A stretch of 64,000 bases of DNA from a virus (taxonomy: Duplodnaviria > Caudoviricetes), in the IMG/VR virus record IMGVR_UViG_3300018012_000099; one strand, given 5' to 3'. How positions within the stretch are numbered: position 1 is the first letter of the stretch; each line of letters opens with the position of its first letter. A model generated the notes under the pieces. The model saw nothing but the letters and a program-made list of their open reading frames with translations. It had not been told where the DNA came from and ran no database searches. This document shows, one piece after another, positions 17,368 through 27,528 of the stretch. The translations under genes were made by a program, and so were the position numbers.

Positions 17368-18495
17368 ATGAAGGTTTTGATCCGCCAATTTTTGGGTAAA
17401 AATCACAGTTGGTCCGTAGTGGGTTGGGGCATTGCTAATGCTCTAATTAAGCAAGGACACGAGGTTCACCTCTTCTCTACCGATGGTGTCCAACATTTGC
17501 CCAATAATTTGCGTAGTCATATCGTAGGTTTTACAGAAGAAAATCAACCTAAAGTTTTTGGTAGACTGCCTGATAAAGAGTATGATTGTCAGGTTAGCTA
17601 TACAGCTATGAAAAACTTTCCGATATTCTTGGGTAATGGAAATCAAAATAGATTTGGTATTTGGTGCTATGAATGGTTTGGTAATAATATTTTACCGATG
17701 GGATTTGCTAAGCACTACAAATTTTGCGATTGGTTATGTTCTCCCTCTAACTTTGTAAAGAATGAAATATTCATCAAAAATGGTATTCCGGAAAGTGCTA
17801 TCCAGGTTATTCCGCATGGTATTAATACGGATCAATATCAACAAGATACCAAAATAATTCTTCCTACCAAAAAGAAATTCAAATTACTTGCTAATATTGC
17901 TCAAAACCATATTAGAAAAAACATTCCTGGCTTATTAGACGCTTATGGTAAAGCCTTTACTAATAATGATGATGTGTGTCTTATTCTAAAAGCCAAAGAT
18001 AAACCAGTAGTTGCGCCATTTGAAGTATCTCTTAATGACTGTCTCAAGACTTTTAATCAGAAATATCCAAAACATGCTGAAGTGAAAATATTCTCGGAAT
18101 TCTTGCCGGACATTTCTGCCCTGTATCGTAGTGTAGATGCCATCTACACCATGAGTTATGGTGAAGGATTTTATTTTCCTGGCTTGGAAGGATTAGCTGC
18201 TGGTAAACTATCCATCGCTCCTGACCATGGCGGTCATGTGGATTTTCTTAACAATCAAAATGCCCTATTAGTCAAGAGCGTCCCCGAGCGTGCTAATCCT
18301 AAAAGTATGTACTGGGAGCCTAAACCTGACGCTATGTGGTATAAGCCGGATATAGATAGCGCAGTCAGTCAGCTTCGTCATGCATTTCAGAATTATGAAA
18401 GCATTAATCAAGTAGTGGAGAGCCAAAGGGAGTATATTTTTGATACTTATAATTGGACTACTATCACCTCACAAATTACAAATTTATGCCGATGA
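17368..18495 (+). CDS. Glycosyltransferase, GT-B fold (family 4 / Glycos_transf_1-like)
   Basis: VIPHGIN, RKNIPGLLDAY, LILKAK, LYRSVDA, GEGFYFPGLEGLAAGK (E-x7-E motif), GGHVDFL. Confidence 0.9.
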   Translation: MKVLIRQFLGKNHSWSVVGWGIANALIKQGHEVHLFSTDGVQHLPNNLRSHIVGFTEENQPKVFGRLPDKEYDCQVSYTAMKNFPIFLGNGNQNRFGIWCYEWFGNNILPMGFAKHYKFCDWLCSPSNFVKNEIFIKNGIPESAIQVIPHGINTDQYQQDTKIILPTKKKFKLLANIAQNHIRKNIPGLLDAYGKAFTNNDDVCLILKAKDKPVVAPFEVSLNDCLKTFNQKYPKHAEVKIFSEFLPDISALYRSVDAIYTMSYGEGFYFPGLEGLAAGKLSIAPDHGGHVDFLNNQNALLVKSVPERANPKSMYWEPKPDAMWYKPDIDSAVSQLRHAFQNYESINQVVESQREYIFDTYNWTTITSQITNLCR

Positions 18496-18510
18496 TTAAG
18501 AAGAATAATT

Positions 18511-19227
18511 ATGTCTAAATACGATTTCGCCCTAGATATGAAAACAGATAACTCTCTTTCTGTTATTCTCAGAAATATGAAACTAAACTCTACCGTATTA
18601 GAGGTGGGTCCTGCCCATGGTCGTATGACCAAGTATATGAAGGAGACCCTCAATTGTAATGTAGATATTGTGGAAATTGATGAAGAAGCCGGCAATGTGG
18701 CAAAACAATGGGCAAGGAATGCTTATTTAGGGCCGCGACTCGGCGACATCGAACGAGAAATTGAACTACATCCAATTGGAAAGGGTAGTATATTTAATTT
18801 AATTGCAAATCACGGCACTTTTGACTATATAATTTTTGCCGATGTATTAGAGCACTTAGTAAATCCAGATAAAGTGTTGTCCAATTCAAAACAAGTATTA
18901 AATAAAGATGGTTCTGTTTGGATCTCTATCCCTAACATAGCTTATAATGGCGTTATCCTGGAATTGATGAACGATCAATTTACCTATCGAGAAACTGGTC
19001 TGCTAGATAATACTCACCTTCGTTTTTTCACTATGAACTCTCTAGATAAAATGGTTAAGAAGTGTGGATTCAGGATTAATTTTGAACATAATTTGCAGAA
19101 TAAGGTTAATTTTTCCGAGTTTAAAGATGCTTATACTAAGGTTCCACCGGCAATAGCGTCTTTCCTTAAATTTAGACCTGGCGGAGAAGTTTACCAAATG
19201 ATATGGGAGCTAAAGGTTAATGAATAA
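18511..19227 (+). CDS. Class I SAM-dependent methyltransferase (Methyltransf_23-like, glycan-cluster type)
   Basis: VLEVGPAHG motif I, FDYIIFADVLEHL, ISIPNIA, GLLDNTHLRFFT. Confidence 0.88.
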   Translation: MSKYDFALDMKTDNSLSVILRNMKLNSTVLEVGPAHGRMTKYMKETLNCNVDIVEIDEEAGNVAKQWARNAYLGPRLGDIEREIELHPIGKGSIFNLIANHGTFDYIIFADVLEHLVNPDKVLSNSKQVLNKDGSVWISIPNIAYNGVILELMNDQFTYRETGLLDNTHLRFFTMNSLDKMVKKCGFRINFEHNLQNKVNFSEFKDAYTKVPPAIASFLKFRPGGEVYQMIWELKVNE

Positions 19228-19942
19228 AGTACTCAGCATTATCATTCCGGTTTTCAACAAATACAATTTCACTAAAGCCTGTCTACAAGACCTTGCCAAA
19301 CTGCCCGAGGATCATCAAATTATCGTAGTGGATAACGGAAGTAGCGACGAGACCCAACGCGAGCTAGAGAAAAATAAAAAAATTACCTATCATCGTGAGT
19401 CGGTCAATTTAGGATTTGCCAAGGCGTGCAACGAAGGTTATAGTATAGCAGTCGCGCCGAACATTCTATTTTTAAACAACGACATTCGCGTGAAAACCAA
19501 CCATGAAGGTTGGACTCAAGAACTGATCAAATGGTGCTCGCAGGGCTTAGTAGGACCCACCATGGGGCAATTAGATAACGAGTTGAACTTCGTACAAGAA
19601 GCCAATCGATCCCTCCCAGGTAAATCTTACATGTCAGGTTGGTGCCTTGCATCTTCCAAAGAAATTTGGGACAAACTGGAAATTAGACGAGATACCACGA
19701 TCCTCTACGATCGAACTCCAGCCCCTCAAATATTCTCGGAAGAATTTGGTTTAGCATATTTTGAGGATACGGATCTCTCATTTAGAGCTAGGAAGTTGGG
19801 AATTGCTATGCAGGTCATAGACATGCCAGTGGTTCATTTTGGCAAGCAAACCAGTCGTCAATTAAATACACATCAGTTGTATAAACAAGCAAGACAAATC
19901 TTTGTCAAGAAGTGGAGTAAGGATAATGCCAGAGGGTCCTGA
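19220..19942 (+). CDS. Glycosyltransferase family 2 (GT-A)
   Basis: LSIIIPVFN, IVVDNGSSDET, NLGFAKACNEG, LFLNND, YFEDTDLSFRA. Confidence 0.9.
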   Translation: MNKVLSIIIPVFNKYNFTKACLQDLAKLPEDHQIIVVDNGSSDETQRELEKNKKITYHRESVNLGFAKACNEGYSIAVAPNILFLNNDIRVKTNHEGWTQELIKWCSQGLVGPTMGQLDNELNFVQEANRSLPGKSYMSGWCLASSKEIWDKLEIRRDTTILYDRTPAPQIFSEEFGLAYFEDTDLSFRARKLGIAMQVIDMPVVHFGKQTSRQLNTHQLYKQARQIFVKKWSKDNARGS

Positions 19943-20726
19943 GGTGCGTCTAAGTGTGGAATTAATTCGTCCATTAGTTGTGGGAAAAACTACTGCTGTC
20001 TTTTCTATGCATGGCAGATATCAAAAGACTAATCCAGAAGGACTGGATGCGTTCAAAAACAAATCACCAGTTCTTGATGTAAAAACCAAAGGTAAATTCA
20101 TGTATTGGGTTTTCGAGGATGAATGGTATATGTTTTGCACCTTTGGAATGAGTGGTCAGTGGAGCCCTAAAAGAGGCAAACACCCAGCTCTCGGTATTGA
20201 GTTTACTGATGGAAGTAAAGTGTACTTTAATGATCCGCGCCATTTTGGAACCATTAAATTCGTTCACGGTGAAGCTAACCTCAAAAAGAAACTAGCAGAA
20301 TTAGGTTGGGACCCTTTCGATGGTGCTACAGATTTTAATATTCTGTGGGTTGAATCTAAGATCAAATCTTCTAATAAAACAATTGGCGAAATATTGATGA
20401 ACCAATCTATATTTGCAGGTGTGGGTAATTATATTCGTGCTGAAGCATTATATATATCCAAAATATCTCCTTGGCGTACTGCTAATAGTTTATTGGATGA
20501 AGAGATTTATTCTCTTTGTGATAATATCGTAATTATTATGCAAGAATCATACAAACATCAGGGCGCCACTATCCATACTTATGCTACGCCATATGGTGAA
20601 GAAGGTAAGTATTCTAGTTGTTTTAAAGTTTATGGTCAAAAACAAGATCCATTAGGTAATCCGATTAAGAAAGAAACTACACCAGAAGGCAGAGCTATCC
20701 ATTGGTGTCCAGCAGTACAAAGTTAA
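19926..20726 (+). CDS. Fpg/Nei DNA glycosylase/AP lyase, zincless-finger type
   Basis: Starts MPEGPEV (catalytic Pro2/Glu3). Contains KGKFM, FNDPRHFG and the H2TH motif QSIFAGVGNYIRAEALY. C-terminal finger lacks the four Cys. True start is ATG 19926. Confidence 0.92.
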   Translation: MPEGPEVRLSVELIRPLVVGKTTAVFSMHGRYQKTNPEGLDAFKNKSPVLDVKTKGKFMYWVFEDEWYMFCTFGMSGQWSPKRGKHPALGIEFTDGSKVYFNDPRHFGTIKFVHGEANLKKKLAELGWDPFDGATDFNILWVESKIKSSNKTIGEILMNQSIFAGVGNYIRAEALYISKISPWRTANSLLDEEIYSLCDNIVIIMQESYKHQGATIHTYATPYGEEGKYSSCFKVYGQKQDPLGNPIKKETTPEGRAIHWCPAVQS

Positions 20727-20734
20727 GGTGTAAG

Positions 20735-21742
20735 ATGAATACAACATTAGGAAAGATTTTAGTCATAGTGGGATTATTTCTCACGTTAGGGGCGTTGGGA
20801 TTTGTGATTTACAATCAGCATCAAATCTCTGTGCAGCAAACAGCCATCCAAACGGAACAGGTAGTGCAGCGCCAACTGATTGATGGTATTGTACGCAGCC
20901 AAACTAGCTGGGCAACACAACAAGATGTTGCTAATTTGCTGGCAGCTAATGGTGTCAATGCGGATGCTCTCAAAGCCATTCAGAACGATTTGAATACTCT
21001 TAATGCCTCAGTGACCACTGCCAATGTAGTTACTGTCAACAGTCAGGGGCAAAGTGTGACGGGGCAGCCAAGCACTGGTAAGGGCACGACAAATCCTAAT
21101 CCTCCTGGACCGCCCCCTGCCGGTTGTCCCTCTACTGATCCTTTCGGATTTATGCAAGCTCAGCAAACTTATCAGTTGAATGAAGATTTTGGTAATGTTA
21201 AAGTTCCCTTCGGAACAGTAGGTTTCTCCGCCTTTCAGGCTCAACCCTGGAGTGCCACTATTCCGTCGCGCACCTATACCGTGGATAATGTTATCGGTAC
21301 GGATGAAAATCAGAGAAACTATGTATATAGTCAAGTCAACATTCAAACAAATGGCAAGACTTATACGGTGCCCATTGCCTCTTCTACCACTAAACAAGTG
21401 TATCCAACCGCTAAGTTTAGCTTCTGGAACCCAAGGCTCTTATTGGGTGCGGATGGTGGTATCAACCTCAATCATGTCAGGGGTGAGTTTACTCCAAGCA
21501 TTAACGTAGGTATCATGAGCTATGGACAGTATAAAACAACTCCCGATTGGTCCATTCTAGAGGTGGGTGCTGGTTGGCAAGCCGTTAATGGAAAACCATC
21601 TTTGGTAGTTACTCCAGTGGCTTACAACGTGGGTCGTAATGTCTTCTCGCCGCTAATGAATAATACCTATGTAGCTCCCTCTGTTTCGGTCGCTTCTGAT
21701 GCCACGTGGACCGTTAGTGGCGGTCTTAGGGTAGGTTTCTAA
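20735..21742 (+). CDS. Membrane-anchored protein: N-terminal TM helix, helical stalk, beta-rich C-terminus ending in Phe (spanin-like or envelope protein)
   Basis: TM segment KILVIVGLFLTLGALGFVIY; Q-rich helical region; PPGPPPAGCP linker; alternating beta-strand C-terminus ...TWTVSGGLRVGF. Confidence 0.45.
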   Translation: MNTTLGKILVIVGLFLTLGALGFVIYNQHQISVQQTAIQTEQVVQRQLIDGIVRSQTSWATQQDVANLLAANGVNADALKAIQNDLNTLNASVTTANVVTVNSQGQSVTGQPSTGKGTTNPNPPGPPPAGCPSTDPFGFMQAQQTYQLNEDFGNVKVPFGTVGFSAFQAQPWSATIPSRTYTVDNVIGTDENQRNYVYSQVNIQTNGKTYTVPIASSTTKQVYPTAKFSFWNPRLLLGADGGINLNHVRGEFTPSINVGIMSYGQYKTTPDWSILEVGAGWQAVNGKPSLVVTPVAYNVGRNVFSPLMNNTYVAPSVSVASDATWTVSGGLRVGF

Positions 21743-22569
21743 TGTTACATATCCTCACTCTCACTTGGAACGGTGTAGATAAATTAACTAAATTGCATCA
21801 GTCCTTAATTCCAGCTCTAGGAAACTCTTCTTATACCTGGCATATCAAAGATAATGGATCTACAGACAATACAGTGGAAATAGTTAAGTCCTGGGAAAGT
21901 AATATTAGAGTTCTTCCTTATAAGGATAATAGACAAAACTTTGCAGAAGGTATGAACTATCTTTTTCATGACGTTTCGCCGCCCGATAATGATTTAATAA
22001 TGTTGCTCAATAATGATGTGATTTTTAATGACACTACCTCTATTGGTAACATGATGAATATCATTCAGAAAGATTCTACTGTTGGGGCTGTGGGCGCCAG
22101 ATTACTCTATACTAATACCGATAAGCTCCAGCATGCGGGTGTTGTCTTTGACAAACAGTACAAAACCCCCATGCACTTTCGTAGAGGGCAAGTTTCAGAT
22201 GAAATAGCGGAGAAGAATAGATTATTTCAGGTAGTTACAGGTGCCGTTTTGATTACCCGCCCTAGTGCCTATCGTGAAGTATGCAAAACCAACAAGTCAG
22301 GTTTGCCAGGTATGGATGAGAAATTTCATTGGGCATTTGATGATGTAGATTTATGTCTCTCTATCAACTACAAGCAGAAGAAAAAAATTGTCTACTGTGG
22401 CGACACTAATATTTTTCATGAAGAAAGTGCTACCCTTAAAAAACATCCAGCTAACAAACTTTTCCTTAATCACAATCTTTTGTATCTTTTTGAAAAGTGG
22501 CAAAAGACGTACACAATAGATGGGGATATATATGCTCACGACACTAGACACAATTTGTATCGTGGGTGA
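21742..22569 (+). CDS. Glycosyltransferase family 2 (GT-A)
   Basis: IKDNGSTDNT, NFAEGMN, MLLNNDV, VGAVGARLLY, LQHAGV, VTGAVL, FDDVDLCL. Confidence 0.9.
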   Translation: MLHILTLTWNGVDKLTKLHQSLIPALGNSSYTWHIKDNGSTDNTVEIVKSWESNIRVLPYKDNRQNFAEGMNYLFHDVSPPDNDLIMLLNNDVIFNDTTSIGNMMNIIQKDSTVGAVGARLLYTNTDKLQHAGVVFDKQYKTPMHFRRGQVSDEIAEKNRLFQVVTGAVLITRPSAYREVCKTNKSGLPGMDEKFHWAFDDVDLCLSINYKQKKKIVYCGDTNIFHEESATLKKHPANKLFLNHNLLYLFEKWQKTYTIDGDIYAHDTRHNLYRG

Positions 22570-22571
22570 GT

Positions 22572-23540
22572 ATGAGCAAGAAGATTCTCGTTACGGGTTC
22601 TTGTGGATTTATTTTAGGAAATTACGTTCGCAAAGCCATCTACAGTCAAAAGAAAGAAGCTGATAGGGATACCTTCATCAGTATCGATAGAGTTACAGCT
22701 AACAACTTGAACTCTATGTATTGGAACCAGAACCACAAGTTCTATCCAGCTGATATTCGTGATAATCATGTCATGGATATCATCTTTCAGCGCGAGCAAC
22801 CCGAGATTGTTATTCATGGTGCTGCCGAAACCTTTGTCGATACATCGCTTAGTGATCCGAATTCTTTTGTTACCTCTAATGTATTGGGAACTCAAGTAGT
22901 TATTAATTGCTGTCTTAAACATAATGTTAAGAAATTGGTTTACATCTCTACGGATGAGGTATATGGGCAACTGACCAGCGAGAAAGATATTGCCTGGACC
23001 GAGGAGGCGCCGTTAGACCCTAGGAACCCCTATTCAGCTTCTAAAGCGGCTGGGGAGATGCTGGTCAAAGCAGCCAACGCCAGCCATGGGTTAATTTATA
23101 ACATTACTAGAAGCTCCAACAACTATGGACCCCGCCAGCTCCCCGAGAAGCTGATTCCCAAGGCGATAAAGTGCATCCTGACTGGTCAAAAAATTCCTAT
23201 TTATGGAGAAGGTAAACAGATTCGAGATTGGACCTACGTAGATGACAATTGTAGCGCCATTTCTACGATAGTGGAGAAGGGCGCTTCCAATGAAACTTAT
23301 AACATTTCTGCCCATCAGGAGTTCACTAATATTGAAGTCATCCAGGCAGTATGTAATGCTATGAATGAAGGGTATCAACTTATCTCCTTTATCCCAGATC
23401 CCCGTCCTGGTCACGATTTTCGCTACGCAGTAGATACTTCTAAGCTACAAGCTTTGGGGTGGAAACCTTCCTATAAGCTTAAGGGCGGGCTGGAGGAGAC
23501 GGTGAATTGGTATAAGTTGAACCAGTGGTTTTTGAAGTGA
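22572..23540 (+). CDS. rfbB: dTDP-glucose 4,6-dehydratase (extended SDR)
   Basis: LVTGSCGFILG, HGAAETFVDTS, YISTDEVYG (T-D-E), YSASK (YxxxK), SNNYGPRQLPEKLIP, RDWTYVDD, RPGHDFRYAVD. Confidence 0.9.
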   Translation: MSKKILVTGSCGFILGNYVRKAIYSQKKEADRDTFISIDRVTANNLNSMYWNQNHKFYPADIRDNHVMDIIFQREQPEIVIHGAAETFVDTSLSDPNSFVTSNVLGTQVVINCCLKHNVKKLVYISTDEVYGQLTSEKDIAWTEEAPLDPRNPYSASKAAGEMLVKAANASHGLIYNITRSSNNYGPRQLPEKLIPKAIKCILTGQKIPIYGEGKQIRDWTYVDDNCSAISTIVEKGASNETYNISAHQEFTNIEVIQAVCNAMNEGYQLISFIPDPRPGHDFRYAVDTSKLQALGWKPSYKLKGGLEETVNWYKLNQWFLK

Positions 23541-23546
23541 TATAAT
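23538..23546 (+). promoter_or_regulatory. Extended -10 promoter (TGnTATAAT) upstream of tubulin
   Basis: Perfect TGATATAAT, also at 54845; variants at 17352, 27557, 45916, 53667 and 59916, all intergenic before non-virion genes. Confidence 0.55.
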
Positions 23547-23566
23547 AGGACGCAAGGAGAAAGAGA

Positions 23567-24928
23567 ATGCCAGCAACATCAGTAACGGAACAGGGAAAAC
23601 CAGAAGAAATAGTAGATAACATGCCTAATACAGAAGTTAAAACAGAAGATAAAATGGATGCTAGCAAGTTGGCGGCGCTAAAAGCCAAAAGTGAAACCAA
23701 ACAACAGGAGAGTAAGATGGCAGCTAAGATCGTATCAAGAAAAGAAAGAAGTATTGCTTTAGGTGTAGTAGGATCGGGTCAAGCCGGCTCTAGATTAGCT
23801 GAAGCTTTTTATCAGCTAGGCTACGATACAGTAGCTATCAATACTGCCATGCAAGATTTAAAATTTATTAACATTCCAGATGCCAACAAACTATTGTTAG
23901 AGCACGGTTTGGGTGGAGCGGCTAAAGAAATTGAAATTGGTCGTGCGGCAGCCGAATCGCATCGTGGCGAAATTCTTCAAATGCTGAACGATAAGTTAGC
24001 TGGTTCCCAGATTAATTTACTCTGCCTTTCTTTAGGGGGCGGTTCGGGAGCAGGTTCTTGTGAAACTTTGGTTGACGTTCTGTCTGGCACAGGTAAGCCA
24101 CTAGTAGTAATTACTGTGCTCCCGATGGATAATGAAGATGCTCAAACTAAGACTAACGCGTTAGAAACTCTTTCTAAGTTAGCTAGAATGGCTCAAAATA
24201 AAAAGATTAATAACCTAATTGTAGTTGATAACGCTAAACTAGAAGTTATCTACCATAACGTTAGTCAAATGGAATTCTTCGGTGTTGCTAACAAGGCAAT
24301 TGTAGAGCCTATCGATATTTTTAATACGCTCTCTTCCATGCCATCCTCCGTCAAAGGACTTGATCCTATGGAGTGGGGCAAGCTATTCACTGATGGTGAA
24401 GGTTTGACGGTTTATGGGGAATTGACTGTGGATAACTTTTCTGAAGACACCGCTATTGCCGAAGCAGTGGTTAACAATTTGAATGGTAATTTGTTAGCTG
24501 GTGGTTTTGATCTTAAACAATCGAGATATGTGGGCGTAATTATTGCTGCCAACAAAGAGGTTTGGGCAAAGATTCCAAGCTCTAGTATCACTTATGCTAT
24601 GGCTATGATCAATGATCAATGTGGTACTCCTAAGGGAGTTTTCAAAGGTATTTACACCGTAGAAACTCCTGACCCTGTTGTCAAAGTATACAGTATGTTC
24701 AGCGGTCTCGGTTTGCCAGAGTCCCGCGTCACTCAGCTCAAGAAGGAAGCTCACGAGCACACCACCGCTGTCAAGAACAAGGATGAAGCTCGTAACCTCA
24801 ATCTACAATTGGAAACGGGCACTAACGAAACGGTTTCTGCGGCACAAAAGATCAAAGATAAGATGGCTGCCAAATCTTCTGCTTTTGGTAAACTGGTTGG
24901 AGGGGTGGTAGATAGGCGCAAACAATGA
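23567..24928 (+). CDS. Tubulin/FtsZ-family GTPase (PhuZ/TubZ-like)
   Basis: GSGQAGSRLA (T1), AINTA, GLGG, GGGSGAG (tubulin signature), VVDN, T7-like GLDPME; charged N- and C-terminal tails; AAGGAG SD. Confidence 0.88.
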   Translation: MPATSVTEQGKPEEIVDNMPNTEVKTEDKMDASKLAALKAKSETKQQESKMAAKIVSRKERSIALGVVGSGQAGSRLAEAFYQLGYDTVAINTAMQDLKFINIPDANKLLLEHGLGGAAKEIEIGRAAAESHRGEILQMLNDKLAGSQINLLCLSLGGGSGAGSCETLVDVLSGTGKPLVVITVLPMDNEDAQTKTNALETLSKLARMAQNKKINNLIVVDNAKLEVIYHNVSQMEFFGVANKAIVEPIDIFNTLSSMPSSVKGLDPMEWGKLFTDGEGLTVYGELTVDNFSEDTAIAEAVVNNLNGNLLAGGFDLKQSRYVGVIIAANKEVWAKIPSSSITYAMAMINDQCGTPKGVFKGIYTVETPDPVVKVYSMFSGLGLPESRVTQLKKEAHEHTTAVKNKDEARNLNLQLETGTNETVSAAQKIKDKMAAKSSAFGKLVGGVVDRRKQ

Positions 24929-26108: not shown

Positions 26109-26681
26109 ATGTCTCAATGCACAATTTATCTACTTAAAAATACCATTAATTCTAAAGTTTACGTAGGTCAAACTTGGTATACTTTGCCAGAACGATGGAA
26201 AGGCGGTGCTGGTTACGTGCACTGTGCATATTTACATAATGCAATCAATAAATATGGTGCTGATAAATTTTGCTACGAAATTTTAGCTACCACCTCTAAT
26301 CAAGAAAATGCCGATTATCTCGAAGATTATTACATCAATTATTTTGACAGTCGTAACAAGGATAAAGGATATAATATTAGAGAAGGTGGCAGTCGTGGCA
26401 AAAATTCTGATGAAACTATAATTAAAATGTCCAAGGCGCAAATGGGTGAGAAAAATGCTATGTTTGGCAAACGTCACTCACCAGATACTAAAAAATTGAT
26501 GTCGGAAAATAGAGAAGATAGTAGCGGTGAGAAAAATCCTAGAGCGGTTCTCACTGAAAAATTAGTAGAAGAAATTAGAATTGATACCAGATCTGAAAGA
26601 GTTATAGCAAAAGAATATGGCGTATCTCGATCTACCATTAACAGTATCAAACGTGGTATAAATTGGAGAAACAATGGCTAA
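26109..26681 (+). CDS. GIY-YIG homing endonuclease with NUMOD3 and C-terminal HTH
   Basis: TIYLLKN..NSKVYVGQT, LHNAINKYG..F, GYNIREGG, NAMFGKRHSPDTK (NUMOD3), NPRAVLTE. Confidence 0.88.
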   Translation: MSQCTIYLLKNTINSKVYVGQTWYTLPERWKGGAGYVHCAYLHNAINKYGADKFCYEILATTSNQENADYLEDYYINYFDSRNKDKGYNIREGGSRGKNSDETIIKMSKAQMGEKNAMFGKRHSPDTKKLMSENREDSSGEKNPRAVLTEKLVEEIRIDTRSERVIAKEYGVSRSTINSIKRGINWRNNG

Positions 26682-27528
26682 TTTAATTAAAGGGATAGAT
26701 GTCAGTATTATTCAGGGCAATATTGATTGGCAGGCTGTGGTTGCATCTGGTATACAATTTTGTATAATGAGATGTGGGGTCGGCAACGGTGGAATAGATT
26801 CTAATTATGCTAAAAATGTTGCTGGGGCTAAGGCAGCAGGAATTAAAGTGGCATGTTATCATTTTATTTATCCTTTACCTACCATACCTTCACAGCCTTT
26901 ACGCGATCCTATTAAACAGGCTCAATATCATTTTAACGCTTCTTTGGGCGAATTAACTTGTGTGGATTGTGAATGGCCCGCACCACAAGATTGGAGTAAA
27001 TGGGGCTGTAATTCTGCGCAGCTCAACCAGTGGATGTTAACCTATTTACAAGAATACGAGCGCCTTAGTGGTCGTAAGCCGCTTATTTATACTTATCCAA
27101 ATTGGGCTGATAATGTTGGTTTTCAAGCAGCATTTTCCCAGTATCCCTTGTGGATTGCCAGTTATCAAGCCAATCCGGACATTCCGCACCCATGGTCCGA
27201 TTGGGTGCTATGGCAGAACACAGGTGGAGGCGGACATTTACCAACCACAGGTGCACCCGTAGATACTGATTTAGCTAAAGATCTTTCATTATGGGATACA
27301 ACAGCAGCACCCACTAATGAGCCTATACCAGATCACCAACCTGATCCTCCTATCAATTCAAACCCAGTTCCAGCACCCATCACGCCACCCCCGGCTGTAA
27401 CGCCAACTTCACCGCCTGTTATTATGGTGCCACCTACTACCAACACCGTGAGTAAGGATTTTAATATTGTGATGGGATTATTTCGTGCCTTATTGAATTT
27501 ATTTAAAGAAGAGTTGCCCAAGCTATAA
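26674..27528 (+). CDS. Endolysin, GH25 muramidase, with Pro-rich linker
   Basis: KGIDVS..QGNIDW, ACYHF, DCE (DxE), PLIYT, YPLWIASY, WVLWQ, VDTD; followed by a Pro/Thr-rich tail. Confidence 0.88.
   Translation: MANLIKGIDVSIIQGNIDWQAVVASGIQFCIMRCGVGNGGIDSNYAKNVAGAKAAGIKVACYHFIYPLPTIPSQPLRDPIKQAQYHFNASLGELTCVDCEWPAPQDWSKWGCNSAQLNQWMLTYLQEYERLSGRKPLIYTYPNWADNVGFQAAFSQYPLWIASYQANPDIPHPWSDWVLWQNTGGGGHLPTTGAPVDTDLAKDLSLWDTTAAPTNEPIPDHQPDPPINSNPVPAPITPPPAVTPTSPPVIMVPPTTNTVSKDFNIVMGLFRALLNLFKEELPKL

What the first reader, a model, noticed from the sequence alone, without database searches (positions are those of the whole stretch)
20735..21742. Possible single-chain envelope-spanning protein (TM anchor plus C-terminal outer-membrane beta-signal)
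Seen: an N-terminal uncleaved TM helix, a Q/A-rich helical stalk, a Pro-rich hinge, and then amphipathic beta-strands ending in ...VSGGLRVGF. Established: outer-membrane beta-barrels end in an aromatic residue, usually Phe, recognised by BAM; known u-spanins have an OM lipoprotein N-terminus and an IM TM C-terminus. Inference: this could be an inverted unimolecular spanin-like bridge or a phage OM protein for superinfection exclusion, which would imply a diderm host.
Basis: inference. Interest (0 to 1): 0.6.

Follow-up and report, generated by a model that had tools for sequence, protein, structure and literature searches.

The report
Huge-phage envelope tether with beta-barrel
A 335-residue protein kept by hundreds of uncultivated huge phages has an inner-membrane anchor at one end and a small, almost charge-free beta-barrel ending in Phe/Leu at the other, so it may link or fuse the two membranes of a Gram-negative host at lysis, but no experiment has tested this.

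Summary
It has no Pfam, PHROG, PDB or cultured-phage sequence match.

AlphaFold2 (pLDDT 95.7) gives an N-terminal helix (hydrophobic 8-26), a small alpha/beta domain, an ordered Pro-rich linker, an Ig-like sandwich and a six-stranded C-terminal barrel.

- **N-terminus:** it reads as a signal anchor. The hydrophobic run is 18-20 residues and has no conserved small-x-small cleavage site.
- **Barrel:** both strand faces are almost charge-free (7.5% charged, against 21% in the Ig-like domain). The chain always ends ...V-G-[F/L].
- **Host:** a syntenic relative encodes a classical OmpA-type outer-membrane protein, so the host is diderm.
- **Lysis link:** a distant family member, and a remote structural look-alike in cultured Cellulophaga phages phi4:1/phi17:2, each overlap the end of an endolysin gene by 11 nt. 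The two endolysins belong to unrelated families.
- **Canonical spanins:** none were found, but the search was crude.

Against a lysis role: most relatives carry the gene after the baseplate genes among glycosyltransferases, the phi4:1 look-alike was detected in virion proteomics, and the periplasmic part looks short and rigid.

Verdict: a new family. A spanin-like two-membrane tether is plausible (about 0.35) and unproven. First readers proposed the same idea in three other genomes of this scan.

The parts
20725..20730 (+). Shine-Dalgarno-like AAGGTG, 4 nt before the ATG. It overlaps the TAA stop of the upstream Fpg/Nei gene (20724-20726).
   Evidence: sequence read directly
20735..21742 (+). 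Gene X, 335 aa (P0001). It founds an undescribed huge-phage family.
   Evidence: no Pfam, PHROG, PDB or INPHARED match
20756..20812 (+). Residues 8-26: N-terminal hydrophobic helix, read as an uncleaved signal anchor (N-in, C-out). Lys7 lies in front of it.
   Evidence: Contrast with the classical cleavable signal peptide of the OmpA-like protein of relative G001.
20813..20854 (+). Residues 27-40: Gln-rich continuation of the helix beyond the membrane.
   Evidence: DSSP H4-40
20855..21091 (+). Residues 41-119: small alpha/beta domain in the order strand, two helices, two strands. About 24% of residues are charged, as in soluble periplasmic domains.
   Evidence: no PDB match above noise
21092..21157 (+). 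Residues 120-141: Pro-rich linker, predicted ordered. Some relatives carry a Cys pair here; this protein has the single Cys131.
21158..21409 (+). Residues 142-225: seven-stranded Ig-like beta-sandwich. It holds the invariant Glu150 and the near-invariant P158, G160, F164, P171, W172, R179 and Y181.
   Evidence: best Z 4.1, Ig-like, not above noise
21410..21739 (+). Residues 226-335: six long strands forming a small meander barrel. One strand face is large aliphatic and variable; the other is conserved Gly/Ser/Thr/Asn. The domain is 10.9% charged and ends ...GGLRVGF.
   Evidence: phage OMP_b-brl proteins at Foldseek probability 0.94-0.96
21742..22569 (+). GT2 glycosyltransferase. Its ATG overlaps the stop of X (TAATG), so the two are probably co-translated.
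22566..23540 (+). RmlB-like NDP-sugar 4,6-dehydratase/epimerase. It follows X (directly or after GT2b) throughout the main clade.
19923..20726 (+). Fpg/Nei DNA glycosylase, the upstream neighbour. It is absent in many relatives, so it is not functionally tied to X.
26674..27528 (+). GH25 muramidase, the likely endolysin, 5 kb downstream on the same strand. It has a Pro-rich linker and a C-terminal amphipathic helix and no cell-wall-binding domain.
   Evidence: a GH25 gene lies within about 8 genes downstream of X in 19 of about 60 related loci

Best explanation
X is a bitopic envelope protein of huge phages that infect diderm bacteria.

**Proposed biogenesis and topology (inferred).** SRP and Sec insert its N-terminal signal anchor into the inner membrane. 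The rest of the chain is exported to the periplasm: a short helix, an alpha/beta domain, an ordered Pro-rich linker and an Ig-like sandwich. The last ~110 residues form a six-stranded barrel with almost no charge on either strand face, ending in G-hydrophobic-[R/K]-V-G-[F/L]. This barrel is buried in a non-aqueous environment, most likely the outer membrane. It would go in through the BAM pathway, perhaps as a dimer forming a 12-stranded barrel. The chain would then be fixed in both membranes.

**Proposed function (inferred).** I take it to act at the last step of lysis in the place of a spanin. Once the endolysin has removed the murein layer, the short rigid tether can pull the two membranes together and destabilise or fuse them.

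**Shown here:** the gene, its conservation, the predicted fold, the composition contrast between domains, the diderm host of a close relative, and the gene-order links to endolysins.

**Inferred:** retention of the anchor, insertion into the outer membrane, any oligomeric state, and the lytic function.
For: 1. **Anchor.** The hydrophobic run is 18-20 residues in 219 of 251 relatives, Lys7 is conserved, and no small-x-small site is conserved. In the same phage clade a genuine OmpA-type protein uses a short cleavable signal peptide ending AHA|Q. The phage therefore makes both kinds of N-terminus, and X is of the anchor kind.
2. **Barrel fold.** AlphaFold2 gives pLDDT 95.7 and pTM 0.83. The top structural match is the six-stranded designed barrel 9xzt (Z 9.5; described in PMC12478100).
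3. **Barrel composition.** Strand positions are 7.5% charged, against 20.8% in the Ig-like domain of the same protein. Of the non-hydrophobic strand positions, 23 of 39 have 5% charge or less, against 7 of 38 in the Ig-like domain. Per sequence, charge is 10.9% (sd 2%) in the barrel, against 23.5% in the Ig-like domain and 24% in residues 27-119. The hydrophobic face varies among V/I/L/F while the Gly/Ser face is conserved. That is the pattern expected of lipid-facing and lumen-facing positions.
4. **C-terminal end.** It is always F, L, M or I, with no extension, and Gly sits at -5.
5. **Diderm host.** Relative G001 has X at 55% identity in the same gene order. It encodes a protein with a signal peptide, an OMP_b-brl domain, a Pro-rich hinge and an OmpA_C domain. 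Its nearest clusters all come from diderm phyla.
6. **Lysis context.**
   - In L005 the order is a tail-anchored membrane protein, a T4-type lysozyme (PF00959), then X with an 11-nt overlap.
   - In cultured Cellulophaga phages phi17:2 and phi4:1 the order is a small membrane protein, a cupin protein, an Amidase_3 endolysin, then gp059/gp057 with an 11-nt overlap.
   - That Cellulophaga protein is a remote structural match to X (Foldseek E 7e-6, probability 1.0). It has the same N-terminal anchor and ends GGFKIEF.
   - A GH25 lysozyme lies a few genes downstream in the main clade.
   - That makes three unrelated lysin families.
7. **No canonical spanin.** There is no Rz (PF03245) hit in five X-bearing genomes. 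A scan of the 480-kb G001 genome and of the window found no i-/o-spanin gene pair and no u-spanin-like ORF.
8. **Architecture.** The gene is stand-alone, with no fused longer forms.
Against: - No outer-membrane barrel with fewer than eight strands is known. The best fold match is a soluble designed barrel, and the 8-stranded OMPs score only Z about 5, within noise.
- I could not read the model coordinates, so which face points outwards rests on composition and conservation alone.
- Three conserved prolines (P254, P294, P315) sit inside strands, which is unusual for transmembrane strands.
- The periplasmic part is compact (pTM 0.81-0.83) and has no long coiled coil. I estimate it at about 10 nm, which is short for a resting periplasm.
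- In the main clade X is translationally coupled to a glycosyltransferase and follows the baseplate genes. It is not in a lysis cassette.
- In six other distant contexts no lysin is adjacent.
- The link to the Cellulophaga protein is structural only; hhalign gives 23.6% probability.
- That protein is annotated as found in virions by MS/MS.
- The spanin scan was crude, and spanin families are diverse.
- G001 has two lipoproteins with weak 'Rz-like spanin' PHROG hits (E 0.0016 and 0.0065).
Confidence: 0.35

Rival explanations
1. X is a non-lytic envelope protein. It is anchored in the inner membrane, and perhaps also inserted in the outer membrane. It would serve during the long infection cycle of a huge phage to exclude superinfecting phages, mask a receptor or stabilise the envelope.
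For: The anchor, barrel and diderm-host evidence is the same as for the main explanation. Most contexts have no adjacent lysin. The Ig-like domain carries an invariant Glu150 and near-invariant W172, R179 and Y181, which look like a binding site. A 2026 preprint reports 1,603 outer-membrane proteins and other envelope proteins in huge phages and proposes host-envelope manipulation (10.64898/2026.10.24.761521).
Against: Exclusion genes are usually accessory and variable. X is a near-universal, single-architecture gene over 28-80% identity. This reading does not explain two independent overlaps with endolysin genes.
Confidence: 0.22
2. X is a virion (tail or baseplate) protein. Its hydrophobic helix and barrel are hidden in the particle and insert into host membranes during DNA delivery.
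For: X follows the baseplate genes in the main clade and is directly adjacent to the 1287-aa baseplate-like protein in L098. The Cellulophaga look-alike lies inside the tail module and is annotated 'structural protein, experimental MS/MS proteomics' in phi4:1.
Against: A very hydrophobic 19-residue segment at the extreme N-terminus with a preceding Lys is a classical SRP/Sec signal anchor. It would send the protein to the membrane, not to a cytoplasmic assembly line. Membrane debris commonly contaminates virion preparations (my own knowledge, not tested here). X keeps its place in distant relatives that have no structural genes nearby. X has no DGY motif, although earlier notes of this scan report that motif saturating exposed virion proteins of this phage (unchecked).
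Confidence: 0.15
3. The C-terminal barrel is a soluble, hydrophobic-core domain. X is then simply an inner-membrane-anchored periplasmic protein of unknown binding function. The low surface charge would reflect an oligomer or a partner interface, not lipid.
For: The best fold match is the soluble designed barrel 9xzt, with 6 strands and shear number 8. Prolines sit inside strands. No natural 6-stranded outer-membrane barrel is known.
Against: All six strands lack charge on both faces across 95 diverse sequences, while the neighbouring Ig-like domain has the normal 30-50% charge at exposed positions. The conserved face is Gly/Ser and the variable face is aliphatic, the reverse of a soluble core-and-surface pattern.
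Confidence: 0.18
4. X is the membrane component of the phage glycan pathway encoded around it (GT4, methyltransferase, two GT2, RmlB-like). It could be a scaffold or chain-length factor for a periplasmic or surface glycan.
For: The order GT2a-X-GT2b-RmlB is conserved over 35-80% identity, and the stop of X overlaps the start of GT2b.
Against: X persists without any glycosyltransferase in L098 and in the distant clades L005, L093, L006, L007, L059, L065 and L067. It matches no known polysaccharide co-polymerase, LCP or ligase family by sequence or fold.
Confidence: 0.07

Closest known systems
Unimolecular spanin gp11 of phage T1 (u-spanin)
   Same: One polypeptide is proposed to be fixed in both membranes of a diderm host. 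The periplasmic part is mainly beta. In two lineages the gene (or its structural look-alike) sits just behind the endolysin.
   Different: T1 gp11 has an N-terminal lipoprotein anchor in the outer membrane and a C-terminal helix in the inner membrane. X has the reverse order, no lipobox, and a beta-barrel instead of a lipid anchor. It is 2.5 times longer and has no sequence or profile similarity. The description of gp11 is from my own knowledge.
Two-component spanins Rz/Rz1 (PF03245, PHROG 'Rz-like spanin')
   Same: An N-terminal inner-membrane anchor followed by a helix, as in i-spanins. The Cellulophaga look-alike gives a weak hit to phrog_1152 over residues 4-104 (E 0.031).
   Different: There is no long coiled coil and no separate lipoprotein partner. 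PF03245 gives no hit in five X-bearing genomes or on X itself.
Small outer-membrane barrels (OmpA/OmpX/OmpW/NspA/PagL; Pfam OMP_b-brl), including phage-encoded ones
   Same: Amphipathic strands of 10-12 residues, a terminal Phe/Leu with Gly at -5, and very low charge. Phage OMP_b-brl proteins match the barrel at Foldseek probability 0.94-0.96. OmpA, NspA, OmpW and OprF give Z 5.0-5.3.
   Different: X has six strands, not eight. It has no cleavable signal peptide and no Pfam hit. The structural scores are within noise.
Cyanophage/huge-phage six-stranded 'OMP-like' family IPR056410 (preprint 10.64898/2026.10.24.761521)
   Same: A six-stranded, apparently incomplete membrane barrel encoded by large phages, sometimes in virion-assembly loci. 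It is modelled there as a dimer forming a flattened 12-stranded barrel.
   Different: Those proteins have signal peptides, which that study required. X would have been filtered out. No sequence link was found (Pfam scan), and X adds about 225 N-terminal residues.
Cellulophaga phage phi4:1 gp057 / phi17:2 gp059 (phrog_38578) and ~200-aa phage proteins of DUF6549/DUF6808
   Same: An N-terminal anchor, a helix, an alpha/beta domain and a beta-sandwich. Scores: Foldseek E 7e-6; ESM-Atlas fold match TM 0.60 over residues 4-224. gp059 also ends in amphipathic strands...GGFKIEF.
   Different: They are shorter (about 200-240 aa). The DUF6549 clusters align only to residues 4-224 and so seem to lack the barrel. 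gp059 seems, by eye, to end in about four amphipathic strands. Homology is not shown by sequence (hhalign 23.6%; no DUF6549 hit in 95 members).
VirB10/TraF of type IV secretion systems, TonB, TolA
   Same: An N-terminal inner-membrane helix, a Pro-rich region and a C-terminal domain acting at the outer membrane. VirB10 is, to my knowledge, the classical single chain present in both membranes.
   Different: VirB10 enters the outer membrane with helices, not a barrel. TonB and TolA only bind outer-membrane partners. No sequence or fold match was seen.

Membership tests
u-spanin (T1 gp11 type) | N-terminal lipoprotein signal (lipobox Cys) for outer-membrane anchoring | tested here: not met
   No Cys lies in or after the N-terminal segment of P0001 or its relatives. 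The only Cys is C131 in the linker.
u-spanin (T1 gp11 type) | One transmembrane helix anchoring the same chain in the inner membrane | tested here: met
   An 18-20-residue hydrophobic helix is present, but at the N-terminus instead of the C-terminus.
u-spanin (T1 gp11 type) | Gene located in a lysis cassette next to the endolysin or holin | tested here: inconclusive
   Met in L005 and for the Cellulophaga look-alike. Not met in the window or the main clade, where GH25 is 3-8 genes away, nor in six other distant contexts.
u-spanin (T1 gp11 type) | Required for outer-membrane disruption; complements Rz/Rz1 defects | not testable with these tools
   This needs genetics.
i-spanin Rz (PF03245 / PHROG Rz-like spanin) | Profile match to an Rz family | tested here: not met
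   X has no Pfam or PHROG hit. PF03245 is absent from five X-bearing genomes.
BAM-dependent outer-membrane beta-barrel proteins | Cleavable Sec signal peptide | tested here: not met
   The hydrophobic run is 18-20 residues with no conserved -3/-1 small residues. This is an in-silico reading only. The clade's OmpA-like protein does have one.
BAM-dependent outer-membrane beta-barrel proteins | Closed barrel of at least 8 antiparallel strands | tested here: not met
   The monomer model has six long strands in residues 234-334 and matches a 6-stranded barrel.
BAM-dependent outer-membrane beta-barrel proteins | C-terminal beta-signal: last residue aromatic or hydrophobic, hydrophobic at -2, Gly at -5 | tested here: met
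   Last residue F 131, L 114, M 4, I 2 of 251. Val at -2 in 68 of 95 and Gly at -5 in 69 of 95.
BAM-dependent outer-membrane beta-barrel proteins | Lipid-facing hydrophobic belt about 25 A high and few charges in the strands | tested here: inconclusive
   Composition fits: 7.5% charged in strands, with alternating aliphatic and Gly/Ser positions over 10-12 residues. Side-chain orientation could not be read from the model.
DUF6549 (PF20186) / DUF6808 (PF20647) | Pfam profile match | tested here: not met
   There was no hit in P0001 or in any of 95 family members at E 0.1. Only a fold-level match (TM 0.60 by the row) and a feature score of 0.84-0.85.
Cyanophage OMP-like family IPR056410 | Family profile match; signal peptide plus a six-stranded half-barrel | tested here: inconclusive
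   No Pfam family of that kind hit X.

The most novel reading that the evidence does not exclude
X founds a third class of spanin. It would be a single chain with an inner-membrane signal anchor and a BAM-inserted (possibly dimeric) beta-barrel in the outer membrane, replacing Rz/Rz1 in a very large group of huge phages of diderm bacteria. The shorter Cellulophaga-type proteins behind endolysin genes would be its relatives. It would also be the first phage protein, and one of very few proteins of any kind, integrated in both membranes. It would further be the first natural six-stranded (or 2 x 6) outer-membrane barrel.
Probability: 0.3. Interest if true: 0.85.

Novelty: new variant of a known kind. 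Interest (0 to 1): 0.62.

Why it matters
Phages of Gram-negative bacteria must breach the outer membrane to get out. Only three solutions are known to me: two-component spanins, the T1-type u-spanin and a cationic 'disruptin' peptide. Many phages, including most huge phages, have no recognisable solution.

This family is present in hundreds of huge-phage lineages and has the right topology for the job. It sits behind the endolysin in one distant member and, as a structural look-alike, in a cultured Cellulophaga system. It would therefore be a concrete, testable candidate for the missing function.

Independently of function, a chain with an alpha-helical inner-membrane anchor and a six-stranded, charge-free C-terminal barrel challenges two assumptions. 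One is that outer-membrane barrels have at least eight strands. The other is that BAM substrates are released from the inner membrane. Pipelines that require a signal peptide for outer-membrane proteins, such as the 2026 huge-phage survey, would miss it.

Tried and rejected
**Sequence and family searches that found nothing**
- Pfam, PHROGs, PDB (single sequence and profile) and cultured-phage tblastn, with the whole protein and with the barrel alone, gave nothing.
- A Pfam scan of 95 members gave only scattered coiled-coil and TM noise.
- Searches for shorter and longer forms found only fragments and no fusions.
- No paper mentions DUF6549 or DUF6808, and PF20186 was not found in four X-bearing genomes.

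**Fold searches**
- Foldseek against the PDB found nothing for the whole model or for residues 36-228.
- VIA-align on residues 36-228 gave only generic Ig-like matches, Z 4.1 or less.
- My idea that residues 56-119 form a POTRA domain (as in FtsQ or BamA) got no support from these searches.

**Other ideas dropped**
- I considered a cleavable signal peptide (cut after G22). I rejected it because position 22 is small in only about 59% of relatives and the hydrophobic run continues to residue 26.

**Host inference**
- One GTDB hit, a 2-kb contig in a 'Proteobacteria' MAG, is too weak to use.
- GH25 and DnaB relatives point to Gram-positive phages or phage G, but at 22-36% identity. I did not use them.
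- The OmpA-type gene of G001 settled the question for that relative only.

- The search for related loci with distant single proteins or distant alignments mostly failed.

**Weak or null results**
- The promoter and terminator scan was at background level.
- G001 lipoproteins with weak 'Rz-like spanin' hits have no i-spanin partner beside them.
Full report
**1. The gene.** The ORF at window:20735-21742(+) starts at an ATG preceded by AAGGTG (20725-20730). It encodes 335 residues (P0001). Its stop overlaps the ATG of the next gene, a GT2 glycosyltransferase. The block 17368-24928 is tightly packed on one strand, and promoter and terminator signals are at background level. The window belongs to an uncultivated huge phage. 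It carries a TubZ-like tubulin, DnaB, RNR, PhoH, a GH25 lysozyme, large tail and baseplate proteins, and a sugar-modification block. No whole genome is held for it.

**2. The family.** X has no match in Pfam, PHROGs, PDB sequences or 50,697 cultured-phage records. It does have 395 relatives at the 90% cluster level and 314 representatives at 50% identity. Nearly all are 320-350 residues and align end to end, and they lie on contigs of up to about 500 kb. There are no fused longer forms, and the shorter hits are fragments. ESM-Atlas neighbours are 'hypothetical protein' clusters that are 94-100% viral.

**3. Predicted structure.** With a 95-sequence alignment, AlphaFold2 gives pLDDT 95.7 and pTM 0.83. 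The parts are:
- a helix at residues 4-40;
- a small alpha/beta unit at 41-119;
- an ordered Pro-rich segment at 120-141;
- seven strands at 142-222;
- six long strands at 234-334.

Residues 36-228 folded alone keep pLDDT 94.7. They match nothing in the PDB above noise; the best matches are Ig-like sandwiches at Z 4.1.

The C-terminal domain matches 9xzt (Z 9.5, rmsd 2.6 A, 83 of 90 residues). That is a designed soluble meander barrel with six strands and shear number 8, whose authors say the fold is hardly seen in nature (PMC12478100). Eight-stranded outer-membrane proteins (OmpA, NspA, OmpW, OprF, PagL) and a designed transmembrane barrel follow at Z 4.6-5.7, which is within noise. In the viral structure library, phage proteins annotated 'outer membrane protein beta-barrel' match the barrel at Foldseek probability 0.94-0.96 but with weak E-values.

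**4. Anchor or signal peptide?** In 251 full-length members the uncharged N-terminal run is 18-20 residues in 219, and the net charge before it is +1 in 196. Lys7 is conserved (84 of 95 are K or R). The only plausible signal-peptidase site has a small -1 residue in about 59% of members, and the hydrophobic run continues four residues beyond it. Relative G001 provides a control from the same clade. Its OmpA-type protein has a textbook signal peptide: a short hydrophobic core and AHA|Q. I therefore read X as a signal anchor, N-in and C-out. This is an in-silico inference.

**5. Is the barrel in a membrane?** I could not read the coordinates, so I used the alignment, with the Ig-like domain of the same protein as an internal control.

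| Measure | Barrel (234-335) | Ig-like domain (142-225) |
|---|---|---|
| Charged residues at strand positions | 7.5% | 20.8% |
| Non-hydrophobic strand positions with 5% charge or less | 23 of 39 | 7 of 38 |
| Charged residues per sequence | 10.9% (sd 2%) | 23.5% |

Residues 27-119 are 24% charged per sequence.

In each barrel strand one face is V/I/L/F and varies between relatives. The other face is conserved Gly/Ser/Thr/Asn. Neither face behaves like a solvent-exposed surface. The simplest reading is a narrow barrel with small residues inside and an aliphatic belt 10-12 residues high outside, which would place it in lipid. Aromatic residues (Y236, Y263, W272/F274, Y297, Y312, F335) cluster at the end of the barrel that carries both termini. 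The chain always stops right after V-G-[F/L], with Gly at -5, which fits the loose beta-signal consensus.

Several points caution against this reading:
- six strands is below anything known for outer-membrane proteins;
- three conserved prolines lie inside strands;
- a soluble barrel buried in an oligomer is not excluded.

A 2026 preprint describes six-stranded 'incomplete' barrels in cyanophages and huge phages and models them as dimers forming a 12-stranded barrel. That study kept only proteins with signal peptides, so X would have been dropped. I could not test self-association.

**6. Host.** GH25 and replication-protein relatives are too distant to indicate a host. I fetched 480,000 of the 480,838 bases of the IMG/VR genome G001, whose X is 55% identical and lies in the same gene order. 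It encodes a 345-residue protein with a cleavable signal peptide, an OMP_b-brl domain (weak, but covering profile positions 1-158 of 175), a Pro-rich hinge and an OmpA_C domain (E 7e-20). Its nearest Atlas clusters are OmpA/OprF families from Binatota, Acidobacteriota, Pseudomonadota, Thermodesulfobacteriota and Campylobacterota, all diderm phyla. G001 also carries several lipobox lipoproteins. The clade therefore infects diderm bacteria. This is shown for a relative and inferred for the window phage.

**7. Gene neighbourhoods.** In about 50 loci of the main clade (35-80% identity) the order is baseplate protein, GT4, (methyltransferase), GT2, (Fpg), X, GT2, RmlB-like, tubulin ... helicase. 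A GH25 lysozyme appears within about 8 genes downstream in 19 loci. In L098 the glycosyltransferases are missing and X sits between the baseplate-like protein and the RmlB-like gene. In more distant members X has lost this block altogether.
- **L005:** a tail-anchored 113-aa membrane protein, a T4-type lysozyme (PF00959) and X follow each other, with X overlapping the lysozyme gene by 11 nt.
- **L093:** keeps the tail-anchored protein and X without the lysozyme.
- **L006, L007, L059, L065, L067:** X lies near IF3, peptide deformylase or thioredoxin genes.

X therefore does not depend on the sugar genes, and it has at least one classical lysis-cassette position.

**8. A cultured look-alike.** The third-best hit of the full model in the viral structure library is 'structural protein' R9ZZB8 of Cellulophaga phage phi17:2 (238 aa, E 7e-6, probability 1.0). 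By its length and annotation I take it to be gp059 (NC_021798:70096-70812); the identifier itself was not cross-checked. gp059 has an N-terminal anchor after two lysines and a helical stretch. It carries a ...K.E....IKELGIDLK... motif at the same position as the corresponding motif in X, and it ends in amphipathic strands...GGFKIEF. It overlaps by 11 nt the end of the Amidase_3 endolysin gene (E 2e-28). Two genes further upstream lies a small membrane protein with weak holin-type hits.

Its N-terminal 100 residues give a weak hit to a PHROG 'Rz-like spanin' (E 0.031). Sequence homology to X is not established (hhalign 23.6%). In phage phi4:1 the identical protein is annotated as detected by MS/MS in virions, and it lies inside the tail module. 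This is the main evidence for the virion rival. Contamination of virion preparations by outer-membrane debris is an equally simple explanation (my own knowledge, not tested here).

**9. Canonical spanins.** PF03245 found nothing in five X-bearing genomes. A script found no pair of an N-terminally anchored protein followed or overlapped by a lipobox ORF, and no lipobox-plus-C-terminal-TM ORF, in G001 or the window. Two G001 lipoproteins give weak 'Rz-like spanin' hits but have no partner beside them. This absence is weak evidence.

**10. Assessment.**
- **Observation:** correct.
- **Structural reading** (inner-membrane anchor plus a C-terminal barrel buried in a hydrophobic environment, in a phage of diderm hosts): I put this at about 0.6.
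- **Functional reading** (spanin-like tether acting at lysis): about 0.35.
- **Rivals:** a non-lytic envelope role (0.22), a soluble-barrel periplasmic protein (0.18), a virion protein (0.15) and a glycan-pathway component (0.07).

First readers in three other genomes of this scan proposed the same 'inverted spanin' idea, and no follow-up is recorded for them. Those notes are not independent evidence.

The family is undescribed and very widespread, and the Cellulophaga phages offer a cultured system in which to test the idea.

Noticed in passing
window:26674-27528: The GH25 muramidase has no cell-wall-binding domain. After the catalytic domain it carries a ~60-residue Pro-rich linker and a C-terminal amphipathic helix (...DFNIVMGLFRALLNLFKEELPKL). 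That helix could tether it to a membrane or permeabilise one.
   Followed up: partly
L099:787-1824 (G001:53853-54890) and L099:1838-2644: A huge phage of the same clade encodes a full OmpA-type protein (signal peptide, barrel, Pro-rich hinge, OmpA_C). It is directly followed by a 268-aa lipoprotein made of Cys-rich 'GVxCP.G..C..G.C.PVDPC' repeats.
   Followed up: partly
L100:1471-3018(-) and L101:262-1830(+): Two other X-bearing huge phages (G003, G004) encode fusions of a periplasmic substrate-binding domain (NMT1/phosphonate-binding type) with an OmpA_C peptidoglycan-binding domain.
   Followed up: no
L005:2297-2638 and L093:5666-5956: A 96-113-aa protein with a soluble N-terminal part and a transmembrane helix at its extreme C-terminus precedes X in two distant relatives. 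In L005 a lysozyme gene is inserted between the two. It may be a holin-like partner of X.
   Followed up: partly
L006:2428-2586, L007:3221-3382, L059:11009-11161: A conserved ~50-aa acidic protein ending ...ERG(V/Y)..I(D/E)L(F) follows X, directly or within a few genes, in several distant relatives.
   Followed up: no
L067:11157-11354 and L067:14371-14685: A 65-aa ORF just after X joins the first ~40 residues of a 104-aa protein encoded 3 kb downstream to a tail ...LLGIRVGL that copies the C-terminal motif of X. It looks like a recombination scar.
   Followed up: no
window:60659-60913: An 84-aa protein with three hydrophobic segments and a sub-threshold DUF5698 hit. It is a possible holin-type membrane protein and lies far from the GH25 gene.
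   Followed up: no
L001:6408-7043(-), L096:2815-5538: Mobile elements pepper this block in relatives. A LAGLIDADG endonuclease gene lies between GT2 and Fpg. An intein with a LAGLIDADG domain sits inside the helicase. In the window a GIY-YIG/NUMOD3 gene (26109-26681) lies just before GH25.
   Followed up: no
G001:426000-441000 (L090): This ~15-kb stretch of G001 has poor ORF structure in my crude gene calls. It holds many small lipoproteins and membrane proteins, two of them with weak 'Rz-like spanin' PHROG hits. It may be an island of different origin.
   Followed up: partly
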